Source: Escherichia coli
GTDB taxonomy: Bacteria; Pseudomonadota; Gammaproteobacteria; Enterobacterales; Enterobacteriaceae
DNA length: 64,000 nucleotides
NCBI RefSeq assembly: GCF_044324785.1
Contig: NZ_CP172127.1
Strand: one strand, 5' to 3'
Within the stretch, counting starts at the first letter, position 1. Every line of letters starts with the position of its first letter. The notes under the pieces were generated by a model. The model made no database searches. It was not told where the DNA came from and saw nothing but the letters and a program-made list of their open reading frames with translations. This document shows, piece after piece, positions 19,638 through 54,500 of the stretch. Made by a program: the position numbers and the translations under genes.

Positions 19638-20942
19638 TTAGAACTGCGATTCTTCGGTGGAGCCGGTCAGAGCAGTAACTGAAGACGTACCGCCCTGAAT
19701 AATGGTCGTCACTTTATCGAAATAACCTGTGCCCACTTCCTGCTGGTGAGAAACGAAGGTGTAACCATCTTTCGCGGCGGCGAATTCCGGTTGCTGCACT
19801 TTCTCAACATAGTGCTTCATACCTTCGCCCTGGGCATAGGCGTTTGCCAGGTCGAACATGTTGAACCACATGCTGTGGATGCCTGCCAGGGTGATGAACT
19901 GGAACTTGTAGCCCATATCCGACAGCTGCTGCTGGAAGCTGGCAATAGTTTTGTCGTCGAGGTTTTTCTGCCAGTTGAACGACGGCGAGCAGTTATAAGC
20001 CAGCAGTTTGCCCGGATATTTCGCGTGGATGGCTTGTGCAAAGCGACGCGCCAGTTCCAGGTCTGGCGTGGAGGTTTCACACCATACCAGGTCAGCATAT
20101 GGCGCATACGCCAGGCCACGGCTGATCGCTTGCTCAATGCCCGCATGAGTACGGAAGAAGCCTTCGCTGGTACGCTCGCCGGTAATAAATTCGCTGTCAT
20201 ACGGGTCGCAATCGGAGGTAATCAGATCCGCCGCATCGGCATCGGTTCGAGCAACCAGCAGGGTTGGAACGCCCGTCACGTCAGCTGCCAGACGCGCCGC
20301 GACCAGTTTCTGAATAGCTTCCTGAGTTGGCACCAGCACTTTGCCGCCCATGTGACCACATTTCTTCACTGATGCCAGCTGATCTTCGAAGTGAACTGCC
20401 GCTGCACCGGCTTCAATCATCGCTTTCATCAGTTCAAAGGCATTCAGGACACCGCCAAAACCGGCTTCCGCATCGGCAACGATCGGCAGGAAGTAATCCA
20501 CATAGCGCGGATCACCCGGCTCAATGCCCGCGGACCATTGGATCTGATCCGCACGGCGGAAGGTATTGTTGATCCGCTCCACCACCGCTGGCACCGAGTT
20601 TGCCGGATAGAGCGACTGATCCGGATACATGCTGGCCGCCAGGTTAGCGTCCGCCGCTACCTGCCATCCCGACAGATAGACCGCTTCAATACCCGCTTTC
20701 GCCTGTTGCAGCGCCTGACCGCCAGTCAGTGCACCGAGGCTGTTGATGTAGCCTTTTTTCGACTCGCCGTGCAGCAGACGCCACATTTTCGCCGCGCCCA
20801 GTTGCGCCAGGGTGCATTCAGGATTGACTGAACCGCGTAATTTCACCACATCTTCCGCGCTGTAGGGGCGAGTAATGCCTTCCCAACGCGGTTGAGTCCA
20901 CTCTTTCTGTAATTCTTCAATTTGTTGTGTACGGGTTTTCAT
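19638..20942 (-). CDS. aceA: Isocitrate lyase
   Basis: 434 aa from [27 protein letters not shown]...; catalytic KKCGH motif. Confidence 0.95.
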
Positions 20943-24616: not shown

Positions 24617-24660
24617 ATAAAACAAAAGGCCCAGTCTTTCGACTGAGCCTTTTGTTTTAT
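24617..24660 (-). terminator. rRNA operon terminator T1
   Basis: Reverse complement ataaaacaaaaggctcagtcgaaagactgggccttttgttttat immediately 3' of 5S. Confidence 0.8.
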
Positions 24661-31895: not shown

Positions 31896-33185
31896 ATGAA
31901 AGTATTAGTGATTGGTAACGGCGGGCGCGAGCACGCGCTGGCCTGGAAAGCGGCCCAGTCGCCGCTGGTTGAAACTGTTTTTGTTGCTCCGGGTAATGCA
32001 GGCACTGCGCTGGAACCCACACTGCAAAACGTCGCTATCGGCGTAACCGATATCCCGGCGCTGCTGGATTTCGCGCAAAACGAAAAGATCGATCTAACCA
32101 TCGTCGGCCCGGAAGCGCCGCTGGTGAAAGGCGTAGTGGATACCTTCCGCGCCGCCGGGCTGAAAATCTTCGGCCCAACCGCAGGTGCCGCGCAGCTGGA
32201 AGGCTCGAAAGCGTTTACCAAGGATTTCCTGGCCCGCCATCAGATCCCTACGGCGGAATACCAGAACTTCACCGAGGTAGAACCTGCGCTGGCGTATCTG
32301 CGTGAGAAAGGCGCGCCAATCGTCATTAAAGCTGACGGTCTGGCTGCCGGGAAAGGCGTTATCGTGGCGATGACGCAGGAAGAAGCGGAAGCGGCTGTTC
32401 ACGATATGCTGGCGGGCAACGCTTTTGGCGACGCGGGGCATCGCATCGTTATCGAAGAGTTCCTCGACGGCGAAGAAGCGAGCTTTATCGTGATGGTGGA
32501 CGGTGAGCATGTGCTGCCGATGGCCACCAGCCAGGATCACAAACGCGTAGGCGATAAAGATACCGGGCCGAACACCGGCGGGATGGGCGCTTACTCCCCT
32601 GCGCCAGTAGTGACCGATGAGGTTCATCAGCGCACGATGGAACGAATCATCTGGCCAACCGTGAAAGGCATGGCGGCAGAAGGCAACACCTACACCGGTT
32701 TTCTCTACGCGGGCCTGATGATCGACAAACAGGGCAATCCGAAGGTTATCGAATTTAACTGCCGCTTTGGCGATCCGGAAACCCAGCCGATTATGCTGCG
32801 CATGAAGTCCGATCTGGTTGAGCTCTGCCTGGCAGCCTGTGAAGGTACGCTTGACGAGAAAACGTCCGAGTGGGATGAACGCGCTTCTCTCGGCGTGGTG
32901 ATGGCTGCGGGTGGATATCCGGGCGATTACCGCACCGGCGATGTGATCCACGGCCTGCCGCTGGAAGAAGTGTCTGACGGCAAAGTGTTCCACGCGGGCA
33001 CGAAACTGGCGGATGACGAGCAGGTAGTGACCAGCGGCGGGCGCGTACTGTGCGTCACCGCGCTGGGTCATACTGTGGCAGAAGCGCAGAAACGCGCTTA
33101 TGCCTTAATGACCGATATCCATTGGGACGACTGCTTCTGCCGGAAAGATATCGGCTGGCGCGCTATCGAACGCGAGCAGAACTAA
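31896..33185 (+). CDS. purD: Phosphoribosylamine-glycine ligase
   Basis: 429 aa from MKVLVIGNGGREHALAWK...; ATP-grasp fold. Confidence 0.95.
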   Translation: MKVLVIGNGGREHALAWKAAQSPLVETVFVAPGNAGTALEPTLQNVAIGVTDIPALLDFAQNEKIDLTIVGPEAPLVKGVVDTFRAAGLKIFGPTAGAAQLEGSKAFTKDFLARHQIPTAEYQNFTEVEPALAYLREKGAPIVIKADGLAAGKGVIVAMTQEEAEAAVHDMLAGNAFGDAGHRIVIEEFLDGEEASFIVMVDGEHVLPMATSQDHKRVGDKDTGPNTGGMGAYSPAPVVTDEVHQRTMERIIWPTVKGMAAEGNTYTGFLYAGLMIDKQGNPKVIEFNCRFGDPETQPIMLRMKSDLVELCLAACEGTLDEKTSEWDERASLGVVMAAGGYPGDYRTGDVIHGLPLEEVSDGKVFHAGTKLADDEQVVTSGGRVLCVTALGHTVAEAQKRAYALMTDIHWDDCFCRKDIGWRAIEREQN

Positions 33186-34507
33186 CGCGACAGTTTTGCC
33201 AAGAGCGTTTTGCGCGTGATCCCTAACTGACGGGCGGCTTCGGTTTTGTTGCCGCCCGTTTTCTCCAGTGCCGCAAGAATCACCTCTTTTTCGACTTCCA
33301 CCAGCGGCTGAATATCCTGACTTTGTACCAGCGGGATCGGCGTACTCGCAATCGCCAGCGGCAGCTCGCGTTCGGAAATATATTCCCCGGTCAGCAGCAC
33401 CACCGCCCGTTCCACCGCGTTTTCCAGTTCACGAATATTTCCCGGCCAGTCGTAGTGAATCAGCAGATCCATCGCCTGGGGCGTAAAACCTTTTACCGCC
33501 TTGCGATTACGCTCGGCAAAGCGCTGAAGAAAATGGTTTGCCAGCAGAGGAATATCTTCCCGCCGCTGACGCAGCGACGGAACTTCAATCGCCACCACGT
33601 TCAGGCGATAGTAGAGATCCTGGCGAAAACGCCCGGCATTCACCTCTGCGGCAAGATCGCGATGAGTCGCCGCAATCAGCCGGACATCAACCGAGATGGT
33701 CTGGTTGCTGCCGACACGCTGAACTTCGCGCTCCTGAATCGCACGCAGCAGACGAACCTGCATCATCGGCGAGATATCGCCAATTTCATCGAGAAACAGC
33801 GTGCCGCCGTCCGCCTCAACAAAGCGCCCTTCCCGGCGTTTGTCGGCTCCGGTAAACGCCCCTTTTTCGTGACCGAACAATTCAGATTCCAGCAAGGATT
33901 CGTTGAGTGCCGCACAGTTGAGCGTTACCAGTGGTTTTTCACTCCGTGCGCTACTGGCGTGAATCGCCCTGGCGACCAGCTCTTTACCGGTGCCGGAATC
34001 GCCGTGGATCAGCACTGTGGCTTCCGATGGCGCGACGAGGGCGATTTCACTGAGCAGGTGTTGCATCGCCGGGCTTTTACCGACCATACCGAACTGGCTG
34101 GCAGACACCGCAGGCGTTTCAGCGTCAATACTGTGCGTATGCGCGAGCACCTTTTCCAGCGTCGCCTGCAGGTTATCGAAATCCAGCGGCTTGATGAGAT
34201 AATCCAGCGCCCCGGTTTTCAGTGCCTCTACCGCCGTCTCGACGCTGGAGTATGCGGTCATAATCAGTACCGGAATCGCCGGATTTAACGCTTTGATCTC
34301 TTTTAGCGTGGCAATGCCGTCCATCTCCGCCATTCGCACATCGCAAAGCACAAGATCAAAAACTCGCTCCCGCACCTGTTCCAGCGCCTGTCGCCCGCTG
34401 TTCGCCAGCGCGACGTTATAGCCCCAGCCGCGCAGTAAAGCCTGCAAAATAGTGCAGTGGCTAATGTCATCATCCACCACCAGAATATCGATATTATCGT
34501 GCGTCAT
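33182..34507 (-). CDS. zraR: Sigma-54-dependent response regulator ZraR (HydG)
   Basis: 441 aa; receiver domain, AAA+ sigma54-activator domain (GESGTGKE, GAFTGA) and C-terminal HTH. Confidence 0.95.
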
Positions 34508-35880
34508 CCTTGTGGGTCCTTACGCGTAATATTGACCGGAAGCCAGAGGGTGAACGTTGCGCCTTTTCCCTCCTGGCTTGCGACCTGAATTGTACCACCG
34601 TGTTGTTCAACAATATTATGCACGACCGCCAGCCCCAGTCCGGTACCTTCGGCTTTGGTGGTGAAGTACGGGGTGAAGATGGCTTCAAGCTGATCTGCCG
34701 CAATTCCCTTACCGCTGTCGGTAACGCTGATTTTCACGCCCGCGCCGCTTTCGCTGGCCGTCACGCTAATCACGCCATGCTGACCAATCGCCTGAATAGC
34801 ATTGAGATAGAGATTCAACAGGACCTGAGTCAGCCTGTCCGGATCGGCCTGAATTTCCGGTAATGTGTCGTTGGCGGTAAAGCGTAACTGGATCTCCCGG
34901 CTGTTTGCATCCTGGCTTACCAGCTGTAATGAGTGGTTAATCAGCGTGTTGAGATCCACCGCCTGCAAAGCCAGATGCGTTGGCTTGACCAGTTCCAGCA
35001 ACTCGCTTACCACGCGGTTTAAACGGTCGGCTTCTTTCGCCATCACCTGCGCCAGTTGATGCGCTTCTCCCCCTGCTGGCGCACGTTCGGCAAAGTATTT
35101 CGCCAGCCCTTTAATCGAGGAAAGTGGGTTACGGATTTCGTGGGCGACGCCTGCCGCAAGATGCCCCAGTGCCACCAGCTTCTCTTTGCGCTTCATTTCA
35201 TCCTGCAATAGCTGCCGCGAGCGCAGATATCGGCGATACCAGAAGAATGACAACACGCTTGCCAGCAAGACCGTCGCCAGAGCGAAGAGGATAATCAGGG
35301 TATTTCTCTGCTCACGATCCTCAGCACTCACAATGTTACTGGCGTCGAAAGCGATAAAAATTGCTTGTGGTGTCGCGGCATACTGCTGCATATGGCGCAT
35401 CCGGTGCATTCCAGCAGCAAACATCGGTTGAAACTGGCGATAAATTTCCAGAACAGGCTCGCCGTCTGCGCTATCGATCCGCCGCCACGCTTCTTCATCT
35501 CCCGGATGTAACTGCTGCATTTTCTGCGGGGAATAAAGCTGTTTTCCCACCATGCCGGAGTTGCTATGCATCACGATTGTTCCTTGTTCATCCGTGACCG
35601 CAAACCAACGTACACCAGGCTGCCCGGCCATTTCTTCCAGTAATGCCTGCTGCTGCGCATGATGCATGCGCATCCCCATGCCGACGCGCGAGCCGGATTC
35701 GAGAGCACGGATAAGTACACTGCCTTTTTCCAGCTGCGTTTGTCTGGCGGCGGCAGTCTCGCGCCCATAATCGCGAATCACTGTCACCGCAAACAGCCCC
35801 ACCAGCCCAACAATGACCACGGGGAGGATCGCGCTTAACCATTTAGCTAAGGAATCTTTAGAACGTTGCATAAAACGCAT
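34504..35880 (-). CDS. zraS: Sensor histidine kinase ZraS (HydH)
   Basis: 458 aa; transmembrane sensor, H-box (HEIRNPL) and ATPase domain; start overlaps the zraR... stop region. Confidence 0.9.
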   Translation of the reverse strand: MRFMQRSKDSLAKWLSAILPVVIVGLVGLFAVTVIRDYGRETAAARQTQLEKGSVLIRALESGSRVGMGMRMHHAQQQALLEEMAGQPGVRWFAVTDEQGTIVMHSNSGMVGKQLYSPQKMQQLHPGDEEAWRRIDSADGEPVLEIYRQFQPMFAAGMHRMRHMQQYAATPQAIFIAFDASNIVSAEDREQRNTLIILFALATVLLASVLSFFWYRRYLRSRQLLQDEMKRKEKLVALGHLAAGVAHEIRNPLSSIKGLAKYFAERAPAGGEAHQLAQVMAKEADRLNRVVSELLELVKPTHLALQAVDLNTLINHSLQLVSQDANSREIQLRFTANDTLPEIQADPDRLTQVLLNLYLNAIQAIGQHGVISVTASESGAGVKISVTDSGKGIAADQLEAIFTPYFTTKAEGTGLGLAVVHNIVEQHGGTIQVASQEGKGATFTLWLPVNITRKDPQG

Positions 35881-35911
35881 CTTCTTCTTTGCCTGCTCAT
35901 CCCTTTCTGAC

Positions 35912-35929
35912 AGCAGAAATCATGCCATC
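35912..35929 (-). promoter_or_regulatory. Sigma-54 promoter for zraSR
   Basis: Minus-strand TGGCATgatttCTGCT with GG-N10-GC spacing. Confidence 0.6.
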
Positions 35930-35978
35930 TTTTAGCAGCGCTTACCCTGCGCTGTAACACAAAGACTTAAGTTTCAAT

Positions 35979-36024
35979 GAGTAAAAATGACTCGCCACCC
36001 ACAGCAGGCGAGTCATTTTTACTC
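35979..36024. promoter_or_regulatory. ZraR upstream activator site: large inverted repeat
   Basis: gagtaaaaatgactcgcc-N10-ggcgagtcatttttactc, perfect 18-bp arms between the divergent sigma-54 promoters. Confidence 0.7.
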
Positions 36025-36065
36025 GTTTATCATGCCAGATTACCCGTCATATCAGCGTTTCGTTG

Positions 36066-36082
36066 TTGGCACGAAAGATGCA
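36066..36082 (+). promoter_or_regulatory. Sigma-54 promoter for zraP
   Basis: TGGCACgaaagaTGCA, near-consensus -24/-12 elements, about 35 nt upstream of the zraP ATG. Confidence 0.75.
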
Positions 36083-36117
36083 ATACCCAAAGTAAGACAA
36101 CCACTGGAGGATTAACC

Positions 36118-36543
36118 ATGAAACGGAACACGAAAATTGCCCTGGTGATGATGGCGCTTTCAGCAATGGCGATGGGATCGACATCTGCATTTGCTCACGG
36201 CGGACACGGGATGTGGCAACAAAATGCCGCGCCCTTGACCAGCGAACAACAAACAGCGTGGCAGAAAATCCATAATGACTTTTACGCTCAAAGCAGCGCA
36301 CTGCAACAGCAACTGGTGACGAAGCGTTATGAATACAATGCCCTGTTAGCCGCGAACCCACCGGATAGCAGCAAAATTAACGCGGTCGCCAAAGAGATGG
36401 AGGCTTTGCGTCAGTCGTTAGATGAGTTACGGGTGAAACGGGATATTGCGATGGCTGAAGCGGGTATTCCGCGCGGAGCCGGAATGGGCATGGGCTACGG
36501 CGGCTGCGGTGGTGGCGGTCATATGGGTATGGGCCACTGGTAA
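36118..36543 (+). CDS. zraP: Zinc-resistance-associated periplasmic chaperone ZraP
   Basis: 141 aa from MKRNTKIALVMMALSAMAMG... with GGAGG RBS; signal peptide; Gly/His/Met-rich C-terminus. Confidence 0.9.
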   Translation: MKRNTKIALVMMALSAMAMGSTSAFAHGGHGMWQQNAAPLTSEQQTAWQKIHNDFYAQSSALQQQLVTKRYEYNALLAANPPDSSKINAVAKEMEALRQSLDELRVKRDIAMAEAGIPRGAGMGMGYGGCGGGGHMGMGHW

Positions 36544-51595: not shown

Positions 51596-54500
51596 TTACT
51601 CGTCTTCCAGTTCGATGTTGATACCCAGCGAACGAATCTCTTTCAACAATACGTTGAAGGATTCTGGCATGCCCGGCTCCATCTGATGGTTGCCGTCCAC
51701 GATGTTCTTATACATCTTGGTACGACCGTTCACGTCATCAGACTTAACGGTGAGCATTTCCTGCAGGGTGTATGCTGCGCCGTATGCTTCCAGCGCCCAC
51801 ACTTCCATCTCCCCGAAACGCTGACCACCGAACTGTGCCTTACCACCCAGCGGCTGCTGAGTAACCAGGCTGTAAGAACCGGTGGAACGCGCGTGCATCT
51901 TGTCGTCGACCAGGTGGTTCAGTTTCAGCATGTACATGTAACCAACGGTTACCGGACGTTCGAACTGTTCACCAGTGCGACCGTCGTACAGGCGGATCTG
52001 ACCAGAAGTCGGCAGGTCGCCAAGTTTCAGCAGCTCTTTAATTTCTGCTTCTTTCGCACCGTCGAACACCGGCGTTGCGATTGGCATACCTTTGCGCAGG
52101 TTTTCAGCCAGACGCATAACTTCTTCATCGCTGAAGGTACTCAGGTCAACTTTCTGACGAACGTCAGCGCCCAGATCGTACGCACGCTGGATGAATTCGC
52201 GCAGTTTCGCGACTTCTTGCTGCTGTTTCAGCATGGCGTTGATCTTGTCGCCGATACCTTTCGCAGCCATACCCAGGTGGGTTTCGAGGATCTGACCGAT
52301 GTTCATACGAGACGGTACGCCCAGCGGGTTCAGTACGATGTCTACCGGCGTACCGTTTTCATCGTAAGGCATATCTTCGATCGGGTTGATCTTAGAAATT
52401 ACACCCTTGTTACCGTGACGACCTGCCATCTTGTCACCAGGCTGGATACGGCGTTTAACCGCCAGATATACCTTAACAATCTTCAGCACGCCCGGTGCCA
52501 GATCGTCGCCCTGGGTGATTTTGCGGCGTTTCGCTTCGAGTTTCTTCTCAAACTCGTGTTTCAGTTCGTCATACTGCTCAGCCAGCTGTTCCAGCTGATT
52601 TTGTTTCTCTTCGTCGGTCAGGCCCAGCTCCAGCCAGCGATCGCGCGGCAGTTTGTCGAGCTTCTCAGCTTCAACGCCACCGGCTACCAGCACAGCACGG
52701 ATACGGCTGAACAGACCCGCTTCGAGGATCTGCAGTTCTTCAGACAGGTCTTTCTTCGCCTGTTTGAGCTGCATTTCTTCGATTTCCAGCGCACGTTTGT
52801 CTTTTTCTACGCCATCGCGAGTAAAGACCTGAACGTCGATAACCGTACCGGATACACCGTTTGGTACGCGCAGAGAAGAGTCTTTAACGTCAGACGCTTT
52901 CTCACCGAAGATCGCACGCAGCAGTTTTTCTTCTGGGGTCAGCTGGGTTTCACCTTTCGGCGTTACCTTACCAACCAGAATGTCGCCACCGGTTACTTCC
53001 GCACCAATGTAAACGATACCGGATTCATCCAGTTTGGAGAGCGCAGCTTCACCCACGTTCGGGATGTCAGCGGTGATCTCTTCTGGCCCCAGCTTGGTGT
53101 CACGGGACACACACGCCAGTTCCTGAATGTGGATGGTGGTGAAACGGTCTTCCTGAACAACACGCTCGGATACGAGGATGGAGTCTTCGAAGTTGTAACC
53201 ATTCCACGGCATGAACGCTACGCGCATGTTCTGACCCAGCGCCAGTTCACCGAGGTCGGTGGACGGACCGTCTGCCAGCACGTCGCCACGTTCAACCGGT
53301 TCACCCAGAGACACACACGGCATCTGGTTAATACAGGTGTTCTGGTTAGAACGGGTGTATTTGGTCAGGTTGTAGATGTCGATACCTGCTTCACCCGGAT
53401 ACATCTCGTCTTCGTTAACTTTGATAACGATACGGGAAGCATCCACGTACTGAACGACACCACCACGTTTAGCAACCGCAGTTACACCGGAGTCAACGGC
53501 AACAGCACGTTCCATACCAGTACCAACCAGCGGCTTATCAGCACGCAGAGTCGGAACGGCCTGACGTTGCATGTTCGCACCCATCAATGCACGGTTGGCG
53601 TCATCGTGTTCCAGGAACGGGATCAGGGACGCACCGACGGATACCACCTGCTGGGTGGATACGTCCATGTAGTCAACCTGGTCACGGCTGAACAAGCTGG
53701 ATTCGCCTTTGCTACGGCAAGTTACCAGGTCTTCTACGAAGTGGCCTTCTTCATCCAGGTTGGAGTTCGCCTGGGCGATAACGTAGTTGCCTTCTTCGAT
53801 AGCAGACAGGTAGTGAATTTCGTCAGTTACAACACCGTCGGTCACTTTACGATACGGAGTCTCAAGGAAGCCGTATTCGTTAGTCTGCGCGTATACAGAC
53901 AGGGAGTTGATCAGACCGATGTTCGGACCTTCAGGGGTTTCGATTGGACATACGCGACCGTAGTGAGTCGGGTGTACGTCTCGAACTTCGAAGCCTGCAC
54001 GTTCACGGGTCAGACCACCTGGGCCGAGTGCGGAGATACGACGTTTGTGCGTAATCTCAGACAGCGGGTTGTTCTGGTCCATAAACTGAGACAGCTGGCT
54101 GGAACCGAAGAACTCTTTCACTGCTGCAGAAATCGGCTTGGCGTTGATCATATCCTGAGGCATCAGGGTATCCAGATCGCCCAGAGACAGACGCTCTTTC
54201 ACCGCACGCTCTACACGTACCAGGCCAACGCGGAACTGGTTTTCCGCCATTTCGCCAACGGAACGGATACGACGGTTGCCGAGGTGGTCGATATCATCGA
54301 CTTCGCCTTTACCGTTACGGATATCAATGAGCTTTTTCATAACATCAATGATGTCGTCTTTGCTCAGGATACCGGAACCTTCGATTTCTTCGCGCAGCAG
54401 AGAACGGTTGAACTTCATACGACCAACCGCAGACAAGTCATAACGGTCTTCGGAGAAGAACAGGTTCTCGAACAGGCTTTCAGCTGCTTCACGAGTCGGC

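What the first reader, a model, noticed from the sequence alone, without database searches (positions are those of the whole stretch)
35881..36117. Compact divergent sigma-54 control region of zraP and zraSR with an 18-bp-arm palindrome
Within 237 bp the sequence shows a near-consensus sigma-54 promoter toward zraP (TGGCAC-N5-TGCA, 36066-36082), a second GG-N10-GC element on the other strand toward zraS (35912-35929), and between them a perfect inverted repeat gagtaaaaatgactcgcc/ggcgagtcatttttactc (35979-36024), which is the expected ZraR enhancer. This is a known architecture, reported here because every element is directly visible and intact.
Basis: partly seen in the sequence, partly recalled or inferred. 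Interest (0 to 1): 0.2.

Follow-up and report, generated by a model that had tools for sequence, protein, structure and literature searches.

The report
Known zraP–zraSR sigma-54 control region
This is the well-characterised E. coli switch region where the zinc/envelope-stress regulator ZraR binds a shared enhancer between two back-to-back sigma-54 promoters; it is intact and ordinary, and the "18-bp palindrome" is two conserved 15-bp ZraR sites plus a rare strain-specific base change.

Summary

- **Locus:** the 237-bp zraS–zraP spacer (35881-36117) of an E. coli-like genome, 97-98% identical to K-12, 042 and N3.
- **Promoters:** PzraP (TTGGCACGAAAGATGCA, 36066-36082, +) and PzraS (ATGGCATGATTTCTGCT, 35928-35912, −) match the sigma-54 ChIP-seq motifs published for K-12. 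PzraS is identical; PzraP differs by one spacer base.
- **Palindrome:** 35979-35996/36007-36024 is perfect and is the longest perfect inverted repeat in the 64-kb window.
- **Functional units:** footprinting across 16 sequences (Escherichia, Citrobacter, Salmonella, Kosakonia, [Enterobacter] lignolyticus) shows two 15-bp cores, GRGTAAAAATGACYC and its inverse. They lie exactly 31 bp (three helical turns) apart in every sequence. The loop and inner arm extensions vary.
- **18-bp arm:** the perfect arm depends on one base. K-12 has 17 bp, and the exact 68-bp enhancer stretch occurs in only 11 of 5,426 complete E. coli genomes.
- **ZraR binding:** the strongest published K-12 ZraR ChIP-exo peak maps inside the palindrome.

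Verdict: already known, low interest.

By-products: an 11-bp (one-turn) indel between site 2 and PzraP, unexplained conserved blocks upstream of PzraS, and a sharply bounded dimorphic ZraS sensor-domain cassette.

The parts
33182..34507 (-). zraR: sigma-54-dependent response regulator (bEBP), 441 aa, with the GAFTGA motif
   Evidence: ORF. Pfam gives Response_reg, Sigma54_activat, AAA_lid_14 and HTH_8. It is 99% identical to K-12 ZraR, and the C-terminal HTH is identical.
34504..35880 (-). zraS: sensor histidine kinase, 458 aa. The start may instead be the fourth-codon ATG at 35871.
   Evidence: ORF. Pfam gives HisKA and HATPase_c. It is 85% identical to K-12 ZraS, and the divergence is confined to the periplasmic domain. 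Strains 042 and N3 have ATA at the first ATG.
35901..35901 (-). Predicted zraS transcription start (12 nt downstream of the -12 C; 21-nt leader). This is inferred, not measured.
   Evidence: Geometry. PMC4591121 uses the same convention (TSS 19 bp from the motif centre, distance 21).
35912..35928 (-). PzraS sigma-54 promoter ATGGCATGATTTCTGCT (GG at 35926-25, GC at 35914-13)
   Evidence: Identical to K-12 ChIP-seq motif OS39. Identity in the 9 non-Escherichia sequences is 0.93.
35942..35963 (.). Two conserved blocks of unknown role (TACCCTG at 35942-49; ACACAAA at 35957-63), at -41 to -62 from the predicted zraS TSS
   Evidence: Identity in non-Escherichia sequences is 0.76 and 0.86, against 0.43 for the surrounding stretch. 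There is no significant IHF-like site.
35979..35993 (+). ZraR enhancer site 1, GAGTAAAAATGACTC (consensus GRGTAAAAATGACYC); centre 35986, i.e. -85 from the zraS TSS and -107 from the zraP TSS
   Evidence: 0.93 identity outside Escherichia. K-12 ZraR ChIP-exo peak_9 overlaps it.
35994..36009 (.). 16-bp inter-site spacer. Its length is fixed but its sequence is variable. It includes the inner arm extensions GCC/GGC and the 10-nt 'loop'.
   Evidence: The loop has 0.36 identity and the left extension 0.52 outside Escherichia. Spacer length is 16 in 16 of 16 sequences.
36010..36024 (-). ZraR enhancer site 2, an inverted copy of site 1 (GAGTCATTTTTACTC on +); centre 36017, i.e. -76 from the zraP TSS and -116 from the zraS TSS
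   Evidence: 0.97 identity outside Escherichia. The ChIP-exo peak overlaps it.
36066..36082 (+). PzraP sigma-54 promoter TTGGCACGAAAGATGCA (GG at 36068-69, GC at 36080-81)
   Evidence: K-12 OS38 differs only at spacer base 36074. Identity outside Escherichia is 0.88.
36093..36093 (+). Predicted zraP transcription start (25-nt leader). This is inferred, not measured.
   Evidence: Geometry. PMC4591121 uses the same convention, distance 25.
36106..36111 (+). zraP Shine-Dalgarno sequence GGAGGA
   Evidence: Read from the sequence. GAGGA is invariant in the 12-sequence alignment.
36118..36543 (+). zraP: periplasmic CpxP-like chaperone and feedback modulator, 141 aa
   Evidence: ORF (the mechanical ORF extends upstream to 35977). 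Pfam gives Metal_resist. Homologues are named ZraP.

Best explanation
This is the shared bidirectional enhancer-promoter region of the ZraPSR envelope-stress/zinc system.

Proposed mechanism:
- ZraS senses periplasmic Zn/Pb or envelope stress and phosphorylates ZraR.
- ZraR dimers occupy two near-identical 15-bp sites (35979-35993 and 36010-36024). The sites are in inverted orientation, 31 bp centre to centre, so both lie on the same face of the helix.
- From these sites ZraR assembles into an AAA+ oligomer.
- By DNA looping over about 75-115 bp, its GAFTGA loops contact sigma-54 holoenzyme waiting in closed complex at PzraP (36066-36082) and at the divergent PzraS (35928-35912).
- ATP hydrolysis opens the promoters, giving strong induction of zraP and weaker positive autoregulation of zraSR. 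ZraP then feeds back negatively on the system.

Shown here: the sequence elements, their conservation, their fixed spacing, and the domain content of the three genes.

Taken from published K-12 and Salmonella data: sigma-54 and ZraR occupancy, and ZraR-dependent expression.

Inferred: transcription start points, oligomer assembly, looping, and the assumption that this allele behaves like K-12.
For: - Gene identity and synteny.
- Promoters: identical or near-identical to the K-12 sigma-54 ChIP-seq motifs (PSSM scores 12.3 and 11.4). RpoN holoenzyme gSELEX gives a peak in the zraP/zraS spacer. The Salmonella ChIP-chip motifs TGGCACGGAAGATGCAAG and TGGCATGATCTCTGCTTA are the same sequences I found in the Salmonella locus.
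- ZraR binding: gSELEX found the zraP/zraSR spacer as the single high-affinity target, in 81 of 86 clones. ChIP-exo peak_9 (signal-to-noise 73) at K-12 4,201,786-4,201,818 maps to window 35988-36020, within the palindrome.
- Expression: in a zraR knockout under ZnCl2, zraP falls by log2 -12.7 and zraS by log2 -3.2.
- Phylogenetic footprint in 16 sequences: the cores and promoters keep 0.88-0.97 identity outside Escherichia, against 0.34-0.43 for the intervening DNA.
- Spacing: the site-to-site distance is 31 bp in 16 of 16 sequences. The distance from site 2 to PzraP differs by 11 bp, about one helical turn, between Escherichia (51; E. albertii 50) and all other genera (62), which preserves helical phase.
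- No sigma-70-like promoter is found in the region.
Against: - No experiment was done on this allele.
- The transcription starts are predicted from motif geometry, not measured.
- The original HydG footprint paper (Leonhartsberger et al. 2001, J Mol Biol 307:93) is not in the held library. Its description, 'two inverted repeats separated by a 14-bp spacer', is quoted from my memory only. It does fit 16-bp repeats here.
- The sigma-54 motif pattern by itself occurs at chance frequency in the window.
- A second K-12 ChIP-exo peak at the zraP start codon (window 36108-36133) is not explained by the two-site model.
- The conserved blocks at 35942-35963 have no assigned function.
Confidence: 0.93

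Rival explanations
1. The 46-bp palindrome acts as a nucleic-acid structure, such as a transcribed RNA hairpin, terminator, attenuator or small RNA, or a supercoil-driven DNA cruciform, rather than as protein-binding sites.
For: It is predicted to fold very stably as a single strand: -20.8 kcal/mol, z = -8.8. In this strain the arms are perfect over 18 bp.
Against: - It lies upstream of both predicted transcription starts, so neither sigma-54 transcript contains it.
- There is no sigma-70-like promoter, no terminator-like stem with a T-run, and no Rfam family above noise.
- Across genera, complementarity between the arms is not maintained. All 9 non-Escherichia sequences have at least one non-Watson-Crick position, including C·A mismatches in four Citrobacter sequences. 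Changes within site 1 are often symmetrical instead (GGGT...ACCC), as expected for a dimer-binding site.
- The loop and the inner stem extension are the least conserved parts, which is the opposite of a hairpin selected for stability.
Confidence: 0.02
2. The palindrome, or part of it, is primarily the site of a different regulator (for example CpxR via its GTAAA pentamers, Fis or IHF), and ZraR acts elsewhere in the spacer.
For: - Each core contains GTAAA, the CpxR half-site.
- ZraPSR and Cpx are reported as functionally linked, and zraP expression changes in a baeR knockout.
- The conserved blocks at 35942-35963 show that something besides the two cores is under constraint.
Against: - The strongest ZraR ChIP-exo peak is centred in the palindrome, and gSELEX with pure ZraR selects this spacer.
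- The GTAAA pentamers are inverted and 31 bp apart, not direct repeats with the N5 spacing that CpxR needs.
- IHF-like matches are at chance level: 4 observed against 2.7 expected.
- The ZraR HTH and the cores are co-conserved.
Confidence: 0.03
3. Only PzraP is a working promoter. The minus-strand GG-N10-GC element is a non-productive sigma-54 binding site, and zraSR is transcribed otherwise.
For: - The motif pattern alone is at chance frequency.
- Sigma-54 occupancy at zraS is lower (fold-above-threshold score 9, against 39 for zraP).
- ZraR dependence of zraS is much weaker than that of zraP (log2 -3.2 against -12.7), and it is absent without Zn.
Against: - The 17-nt motif is invariant or nearly so across five genera (0.93 identity), whereas the surrounding DNA is not.
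- It is a sigma-54 ChIP site in both K-12 and Salmonella.
- zraS expression is ZraR-dependent under Zn.
- No sigma-70-like promoter is detected.
Confidence: 0.04
4. The palindrome is a chance feature or the remnant of a mobile element (MITE or IS terminal repeat).
For: Long perfect inverted repeats are typical of mobile-element ends.
Against: - It occurs as a single copy per genome (median 1 place per genome in 5,414 genomes).
- There is no other copy in the window.
- It sits at the same syntenic position with fixed spacing in five genera.
- The chance expectation is about 4e-5.
Confidence: 0.01

Closest known systems
E. coli K-12 zraP-zraSR (hydHG) intergenic region (Leonhartsberger et al. 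2001; RegulonDB promoters zraPp and zraSp)
   Same: The spacer is 237 bp in both. PzraS is identical and both 15-bp ZraR cores are identical. All spacings and the flanking genes are the same.
   Different: There are eight substitutions in the spacer:
- 35935: G here, T in K-12.
- 35965: A here, G in K-12.
- 35996: C here, T in K-12. This lengthens the perfect arm from 17 to 18 bp.
- 36001: A here, G in K-12. This lies in the loop.
- 36062: G here, A in K-12.
- 36064: T here, C in K-12.
- 36074: A here, G in K-12. This lies in the PzraP -24/-12 spacer.
- 36089: A here, G in K-12.

The adjacent zraS carries the other sensor-domain allele class.
NtrC enhancer of glnAp2 (two strong NtrC dimer sites about 32 bp apart, upstream of a sigma-54 promoter); stated from general knowledge
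   Same: There are two dyad-symmetric sites three helical turns apart. They serve as an assembly platform for an NtrC-family AAA+ oligomer that activates by looping.
   Different: Here the enhancer is closer to its promoters (site centres at -76/-107 and -85/-116), and it serves two divergent promoters at once. The site sequence also differs: GRGTAAAAATGACYC, with an invariant A5 tract.
norR-norVW and atoDAEB bEBP control regions (NorR with three sites in a divergent spacer; AtoC with paired inverted 20-bp sites)
   Same: The bEBP gene lies next to its target. Multiple inverted-repeat enhancer sites sit in a short spacer next to a sigma-54 promoter (PMC2831303 abstract; PMC3118216).
   Different: In norR-norVW only one of the divergent promoters is sigma-54-dependent (general knowledge). 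Here both are. There are two sites here rather than three.

Membership tests
Sigma-54 (-24/-12) promoter | GG and GC dinucleotides separated by exactly 10 nt, within a TGGCAC-N5-TTGCW context | tested here: met
   PzraP is TGGCAC-GAAAG-ATGCA and PzraS is TGGCAT-GATTT-CTGCT. Each has one deviation in one or both hexamer/pentamer blocks.
Sigma-54 (-24/-12) promoter | Intergenic position, oriented toward a gene, with a short leader | tested here: met
   The predicted starts are 25 nt upstream of the zraP ATG and 21 nt upstream of the zraS ATG. PMC4591121 gives the same values.
Sigma-54 (-24/-12) promoter | More frequent than chance as a bare motif | tested here: not met
   There are 19 matches against 20.4 expected in the window. 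The motif alone does not discriminate; context and conservation do.
Sigma-54 (-24/-12) promoter | Occupancy by sigma-54 holoenzyme and rpoN-dependent transcription | not testable with these tools
   Published for the same or near-identical K-12 sequence by ChIP-seq and gSELEX, and for the Salmonella orthologues.
Sigma-54 (-24/-12) promoter | Experimentally mapped transcription start 12 nt downstream of the GC element | not tested
   Only predicted starts are available. The published 'distance' values are also predictions.
Sigma-54 (-24/-12) promoter | Evolutionary conservation of the element relative to flanking non-coding DNA | tested here: met
   Identity outside Escherichia is 0.93 (PzraS) and 0.88 (PzraP), against 0.34-0.43 for the flanks.
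bEBP upstream enhancer (UAS) for ZraR | Paired dyad-symmetric sites on the same helical face, upstream of the -24 element | tested here: met
   There are two inverted 15-bp cores, each with an outer GAGT/ACTC dyad. They are 31 bp centre to centre in 16 of 16 sequences, and 51-62 bp from the GG elements.
bEBP upstream enhancer (UAS) for ZraR | Cognate activator with REC, an AAA+ sigma-54-interaction domain (GAFTGA) and a Fis-type HTH, encoded nearby | tested here: met
   Pfam domains. GAFTGA is visible in the translation. The protein is 99% identical to K-12 ZraR.
bEBP upstream enhancer (UAS) for ZraR | Direct binding of ZraR to these bases | not testable with these tools
   The K-12 ChIP-exo peak maps to window 35988-36020. 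gSELEX supports the same spacer. The original footprint paper is not held.
bEBP upstream enhancer (UAS) for ZraR | Helical-phase dependence between enhancer and promoter | tested here: inconclusive
   A natural 11-bp indel (51 against 62 bp) is consistent with phase conservation, but it is a single evolutionary event.
ZraPSR three-component system | zraP (CpxP-like, Metal_resist) divergent from the zraS-zraR operon, in the purD...yjaH-hupA synteny | tested here: met
Intrinsic terminator or known RNA family (rival) | GC-rich stem followed by a T-run, or a match to an Rfam model | tested here: not met
   There are no terminator-like sites. The only Rfam hits are noise: E = 0.3-0.7, scores of about 20 bits against gathering thresholds of 50-54.
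Dispersed repeat or mobile-element end (rival) | Multiple copies per genome | tested here: not met
   The median is 1 place per genome. The only copies in the window are the two arms.

The most novel reading that the evidence does not exclude
The enhancer may be functionally asymmetric. On the zraS side only, the DNA between site 1 and the promoter has a fixed length (59-60 bp) and carries two blocks conserved across five genera (TACCCTG at 35942-49 and ACACAAA at 35957-63, at -41 to -62). On the zraP side, the corresponding DNA is unconserved and tolerates an 11-bp indel. An undescribed architectural or regulatory factor, or a sequence-dependent bend, could therefore tune sensor/regulator expression separately from zraP. 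The secondary ZraR ChIP-exo peak over the zraP start codon could likewise mark a third, weak ZraR contact.
Probability: 0.15. Interest if true: 0.35.

Novelty: already known. Interest (0 to 1): 0.1.

Why it matters
For the finding itself, very little. It re-identifies a textbook-level bEBP/sigma-54 divergent control region that is also widely used as a Zn/Pb biosensor promoter.

The checks add some modest value:
1. They define the ZraR site as a 15-bp core, GRGTAAAAATGACYC, with an obligatory 31-bp inverted pairing across Enterobacteriaceae. A 2016 Salmonella review still lists the ZraR enhancer sequence as 'not known'.
2. They show that the long perfect palindrome is incidental.
3. They flag a possible extra control element upstream of PzraS.
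4. They flag a two-allele ZraS sensor cassette, which could matter to anyone extrapolating K-12 ZraS signalling or biosensor behaviour to other E. coli strains.

Tried and rejected
- **Original HydG footprint paper:** I looked for it (PMID 11243806). It is not held. Four literature searches and reads of eleven papers found no open text giving the footprint sequence. I used ChIP-exo coordinates from a supplement instead.
- **Motif statistics:** these cannot support the promoters on their own, because the match count is at chance level.
- **IHF site:** I tested for one between the enhancer and the promoters and rejected it: 4 weak matches against 2.7 in shuffles.
- **CpxR box:** the CpxR-like GTAAG-N5-CTAAA (35946..35932, minus strand) is an 8/10 match, but it is not conserved outside Escherichia and has a chance probability of about 0.2 (my own reading of the alignment). 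Rejected as evidence.
- **RNA element, terminator or sigma-70 promoter:** none found.
- **Hairpin-type covariation between the arms:** not supported.
- **Orphan -24-like element:** a second copy of ATCATGCCA at 36029-36037 looked like one, but it has no GC at the -12 position and is restricted to Escherichia. It is treated as incidental.
- **Solved structure for the ZraS sensor domain:** none found by sequence. My first attempt was out of frame.
- **Source strain:** N3 and 042 share the exact enhancer but differ by about 2% across the locus, so the source strain is not among the complete genomes searched.

Full report
**Observation**

The window carries zraR (33182-34507, −), zraS (34504-35880, −) and zraP (36118-36543, +), separated by a 237-bp spacer at 35881-36117.

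- PzraP, TTGGCACGAAAGATGCA, lies at 36066-36082 (+), with GG-N10-GC.
- PzraS, ATGGCATGATTTCTGCT, lies at 35928..35912 (−), also with GG-N10-GC.
- The perfect inverted repeat GAGTAAAAATGACTCGCC / GGCGAGTCATTTTTACTC lies at 35979-35996 / 36007-36024, with a 10-nt spacer.

The only slip is notational. The zraP element is TGGCAC-N5-ATGCA, i.e. N6 before TGCA, not N5.

The palindrome is far beyond chance. It is the longest perfect inverted repeat in the 64 kb, where about 4e-5 are expected, and its fold z-score is -8.8.

The sigma-54 pattern is not beyond chance on its own. There are 19 matches against 20.4 expected, and the other two exact matches sit inside aceA (antisense) and rpoB.

**Identity of the locus**

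Pfam gives REC + Sigma54_activat + AAA_lid + HTH_8 for ZraR, HisKA + HATPase_c for ZraS, and Metal_resist for ZraP. GAFTGA is visible in the ZraR translation. ZraR is 99% identical to K-12 ZraR, with an identical C-terminal HTH.

Synteny (purD-zraR-zraS-zraP-yjaH-hupA-yjaG-nfi-hemE) matches K-12 and strains 4621, 042 and N3. The spacer is present in 5,420 of 5,426 complete E. coli genomes at 90-99% identity. The window is a natural E. coli variant about 2% diverged from its nearest complete genomes in this locus.

**Comparison with K-12**

The spacer is 237 bp in both. PzraS and both 15-bp cores are identical. PzraP differs only at 36074, in the spacer between -24 and -12.

K-12 has T where the window has C at 35996, so K-12's perfect arm is 17 bp. 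The exact 68-bp stretch around the palindrome is found in only 11 of 5,426 genomes. The '18-bp perfect arm' is therefore a rare strain-level feature, not the conserved unit.

**Published occupancy**

- Sigma-54 ChIP-seq in K-12 lists TTGGCACGGAAGATGCA (zraP) and ATGGCATGATTTCTGCT (zraS) as sites OS38 and OS39, with predicted start-to-gene distances of 25 and 21 bp (PMC4591121). These are the same numbers I derive here.
- RpoN holoenzyme gSELEX gives a peak in the zraP/zraS spacer (PMC8743547).
- Salmonella ChIP-chip reports TGGCACGGAAGATGCAAG and TGGCATGATCTCTGCTTA (PMC3844500). Those are exactly the motifs I located in a Salmonella contig.
- For ZraR, gSELEX found this spacer as the single high-affinity target (PMC8249747).
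- The ChIP-exo supplement of PMC7657598 gives the strongest ZraR peak at K-12 4,201,786-4,201,818. With the K-12 cores at 4,201,782-4,201,827, the peak maps to window 35988-36020, inside the palindrome.
- The same study reports that a zraR knockout under Zn lowers zraP by log2 12.7 and zraS by log2 3.2.

The original footprint paper is not in the held library. From memory, its abstract describes 'two inverted repeats separated by a 14-bp spacer'. That fits 16-bp repeats (35979-35994 / 36009-36024) around a 14-bp spacer here.

**Phylogenetic footprinting**

I collected orthologous spacers from E. coli E69 and SCPM, E. whittamii, E. albertii, Escherichia sp. MOD1, five Citrobacter, C. rodentium, Salmonella, Kosakonia and [Enterobacter] lignolyticus.

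Mean identity to the window in the nine non-Escherichia sequences:

| Element | Identity |
|---|---|
| PzraS | 0.93 |
| Site 1 | 0.93 |
| Site 2 | 0.97 |
| PzraP | 0.88 |
| Palindrome loop | 0.36 |
| Left inner arm extension | 0.52 |
| Site 2 to PzraP stretch | 0.34 |
| PzraS to site 1 stretch | 0.43 |

The site consensus is GRGTAAAAATGACYC, with an invariant A5 tract.

The centre-to-centre distance of the two sites is 31 bp in all 16 sequences, although the 16 intervening bases vary freely. That is about three helical turns, so both sites face the same side.

The distance from site 2 to the GG of PzraP is 51 bp in Escherichia (50 in E. albertii) and 62 bp in every other genus. This is an 11-bp, one-turn difference that keeps the helical phase.

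Complementarity between the arms is not maintained outside Escherichia. Every non-Escherichia sequence has at least one non-Watson-Crick position, and four have C·A mismatches. In four sequences, site 1 changes symmetrically within itself (GGGT...ACCC). This argues for two protein-binding dyads rather than a selected hairpin.

**Mechanism**

The best-supported mechanism, at 0.93 confidence, runs as follows. Phospho-ZraR dimers bind the two cores, centred at -76/-107 from the predicted zraP start at 36093 and at -85/-116 from the predicted zraS start at 35901. They oligomerise, loop to the sigma-54 closed complexes at both divergent promoters, and drive open-complex formation by ATP hydrolysis. 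ZraP then provides negative feedback.

The elements, their conservation and their spacing are shown here. Occupancy and ZraR dependence come from published work on K-12 and Salmonella. Start sites, looping and oligomer assembly are inferred from general NtrC-family knowledge.

**Rivals**

- A transcribed hairpin, terminator or small RNA is disfavoured. The palindrome lies upstream of both starts, there is no sigma-70-like promoter or terminator, there is no Rfam match above noise, and the conservation pattern is wrong.
- A mobile-element remnant is excluded by its single-copy, syntenic conservation.
- A different regulator at the palindrome is unlikely given ChIP-exo and gSELEX.
- IHF-like matches are at chance level.
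- PzraS as a non-productive site is unlikely given its conservation, ChIP signal and Zn/ZraR-dependent expression.

**Unexplained residue**

1. Two blocks between PzraS and site 1 (TACCCTG at 35942-49; ACACAAA at 35957-63) are conserved across genera at 0.76 and 0.86. No factor is assigned to them.
2. A second K-12 ZraR ChIP-exo peak maps to window 36108-36133, over the zraP ribosome-binding site and start codon. GATTAACCATGAAAC at 36110-36124 matches the core at only 10 of 15 positions (my own reading of the sequence, not a tool result). The peak may be a looping cross-link.

**Verdict**

The system is already known, and interest is low at 0.1. The main corrections are that the conserved functional unit is a pair of 15-bp sites at a fixed 31-bp spacing, and that the 18-bp perfection is a rare single-base accident.

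Noticed in passing
window 35300-35775 (zraS codons ~36-194, periplasmic sensor domain): ZraS is a mosaic relative to K-12. The flanks are 93-98% identical at nucleotide level, but a sharply bounded ~475-nt cassette is only 45-77% identical, which gives 58% amino-acid identity and a 7-aa length difference. E. coli is dimorphic: 4,183 genomes carry the window-like 151-aa class, 1,236 carry the K-12-like 158-aa class, and none fall in the 80-95% identity band. The K-12 class is shared with E. whittamii (92%) and E. albertii (83%). The two classes are as far from each other as from Salmonella or Citrobacter. There is no solved structure by sequence. The laboratory reference K-12 therefore carries the minority sensor allele. 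I did not check whether this is documented.
   Followed up: partly
window 35942-35949 and 35957-35963: The blocks TACCCTG and ACACAAA between PzraS and ZraR site 1 (at -41 to -62 from the predicted zraS start) are conserved across five genera at 0.76 and 0.86, against a 0.43 background. The matching zraP-side stretch is unconserved. There is no IHF consensus, and a CpxR-like 8/10 match on the minus strand is not conserved. Their function is unknown.
   Followed up: partly
window 36025-36065 versus loci L008-L016: Escherichia lacks 11 bp, about one helical turn, between ZraR site 2 and PzraP relative to Citrobacter, Salmonella, Kosakonia and [Enterobacter] lignolyticus (51 against 62 bp). The sequence here is otherwise unconserved. 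This is consistent with selection on helical phase only.
   Followed up: yes
window 36108-36133: A second published K-12 ZraR ChIP-exo peak (peak_8, signal-to-noise 34) maps onto the zraP Shine-Dalgarno and start codon, at +15 to +40. GATTAACCATGAAAC at 36110-36124 matches the ZraR core at 10 of 15 positions. It could be a weak third site or a cross-link through the DNA loop.
   Followed up: partly
window 35869-35880 (zraS start): E. coli 042 and N3 have ATA in place of the annotated first ATG of zraS (C to T at 35878), and E. albertii has a 2-bp gap there. The fourth-codon ATG (35871-35869) is preserved and is preceded by AAGAAGAAG. The true start may be M4, which would make the leader 30 nt rather than 21 nt.
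   Followed up: partly
window 35977-36117: The mechanical ORF list extends zraP in frame upstream to an ATG at 35977 (188 aa), running through the enhancer and promoter. Database entries of 174-186 aa for ZraP (for example P0001, P0004, P0005) appear to be this mis-annotated extension, since the predicted start at 36093 lies downstream of it.
   Followed up: partly
window 36029-36037 versus 35919-35927: There is a 9-bp direct repeat, ATCATGCCA. The second copy gives an orphan TGGCAT (-24-like) on the minus strand just beyond site 2, with no GC at the -12 position. It is found only in Escherichia, next to the 11-bp indel.
   Followed up: partly
window 20589-20603 (+) and 52486-52500 (-): There are two further exact TGGCAC-N6-TGC matches. 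One is antisense inside aceA and one is sense inside rpoB. Neither gene name appears in the main text of the K-12 sigma-54 ChIP-seq paper. They are probably chance matches.
   Followed up: partly
window 24617-24660: This is the second-longest perfect inverted repeat in the window: ATAAAACAAAAGGC / GCCTTTTGTTTTAT, with 14-bp arms and a 16-nt loop. I did not examine its context.
   Followed up: no
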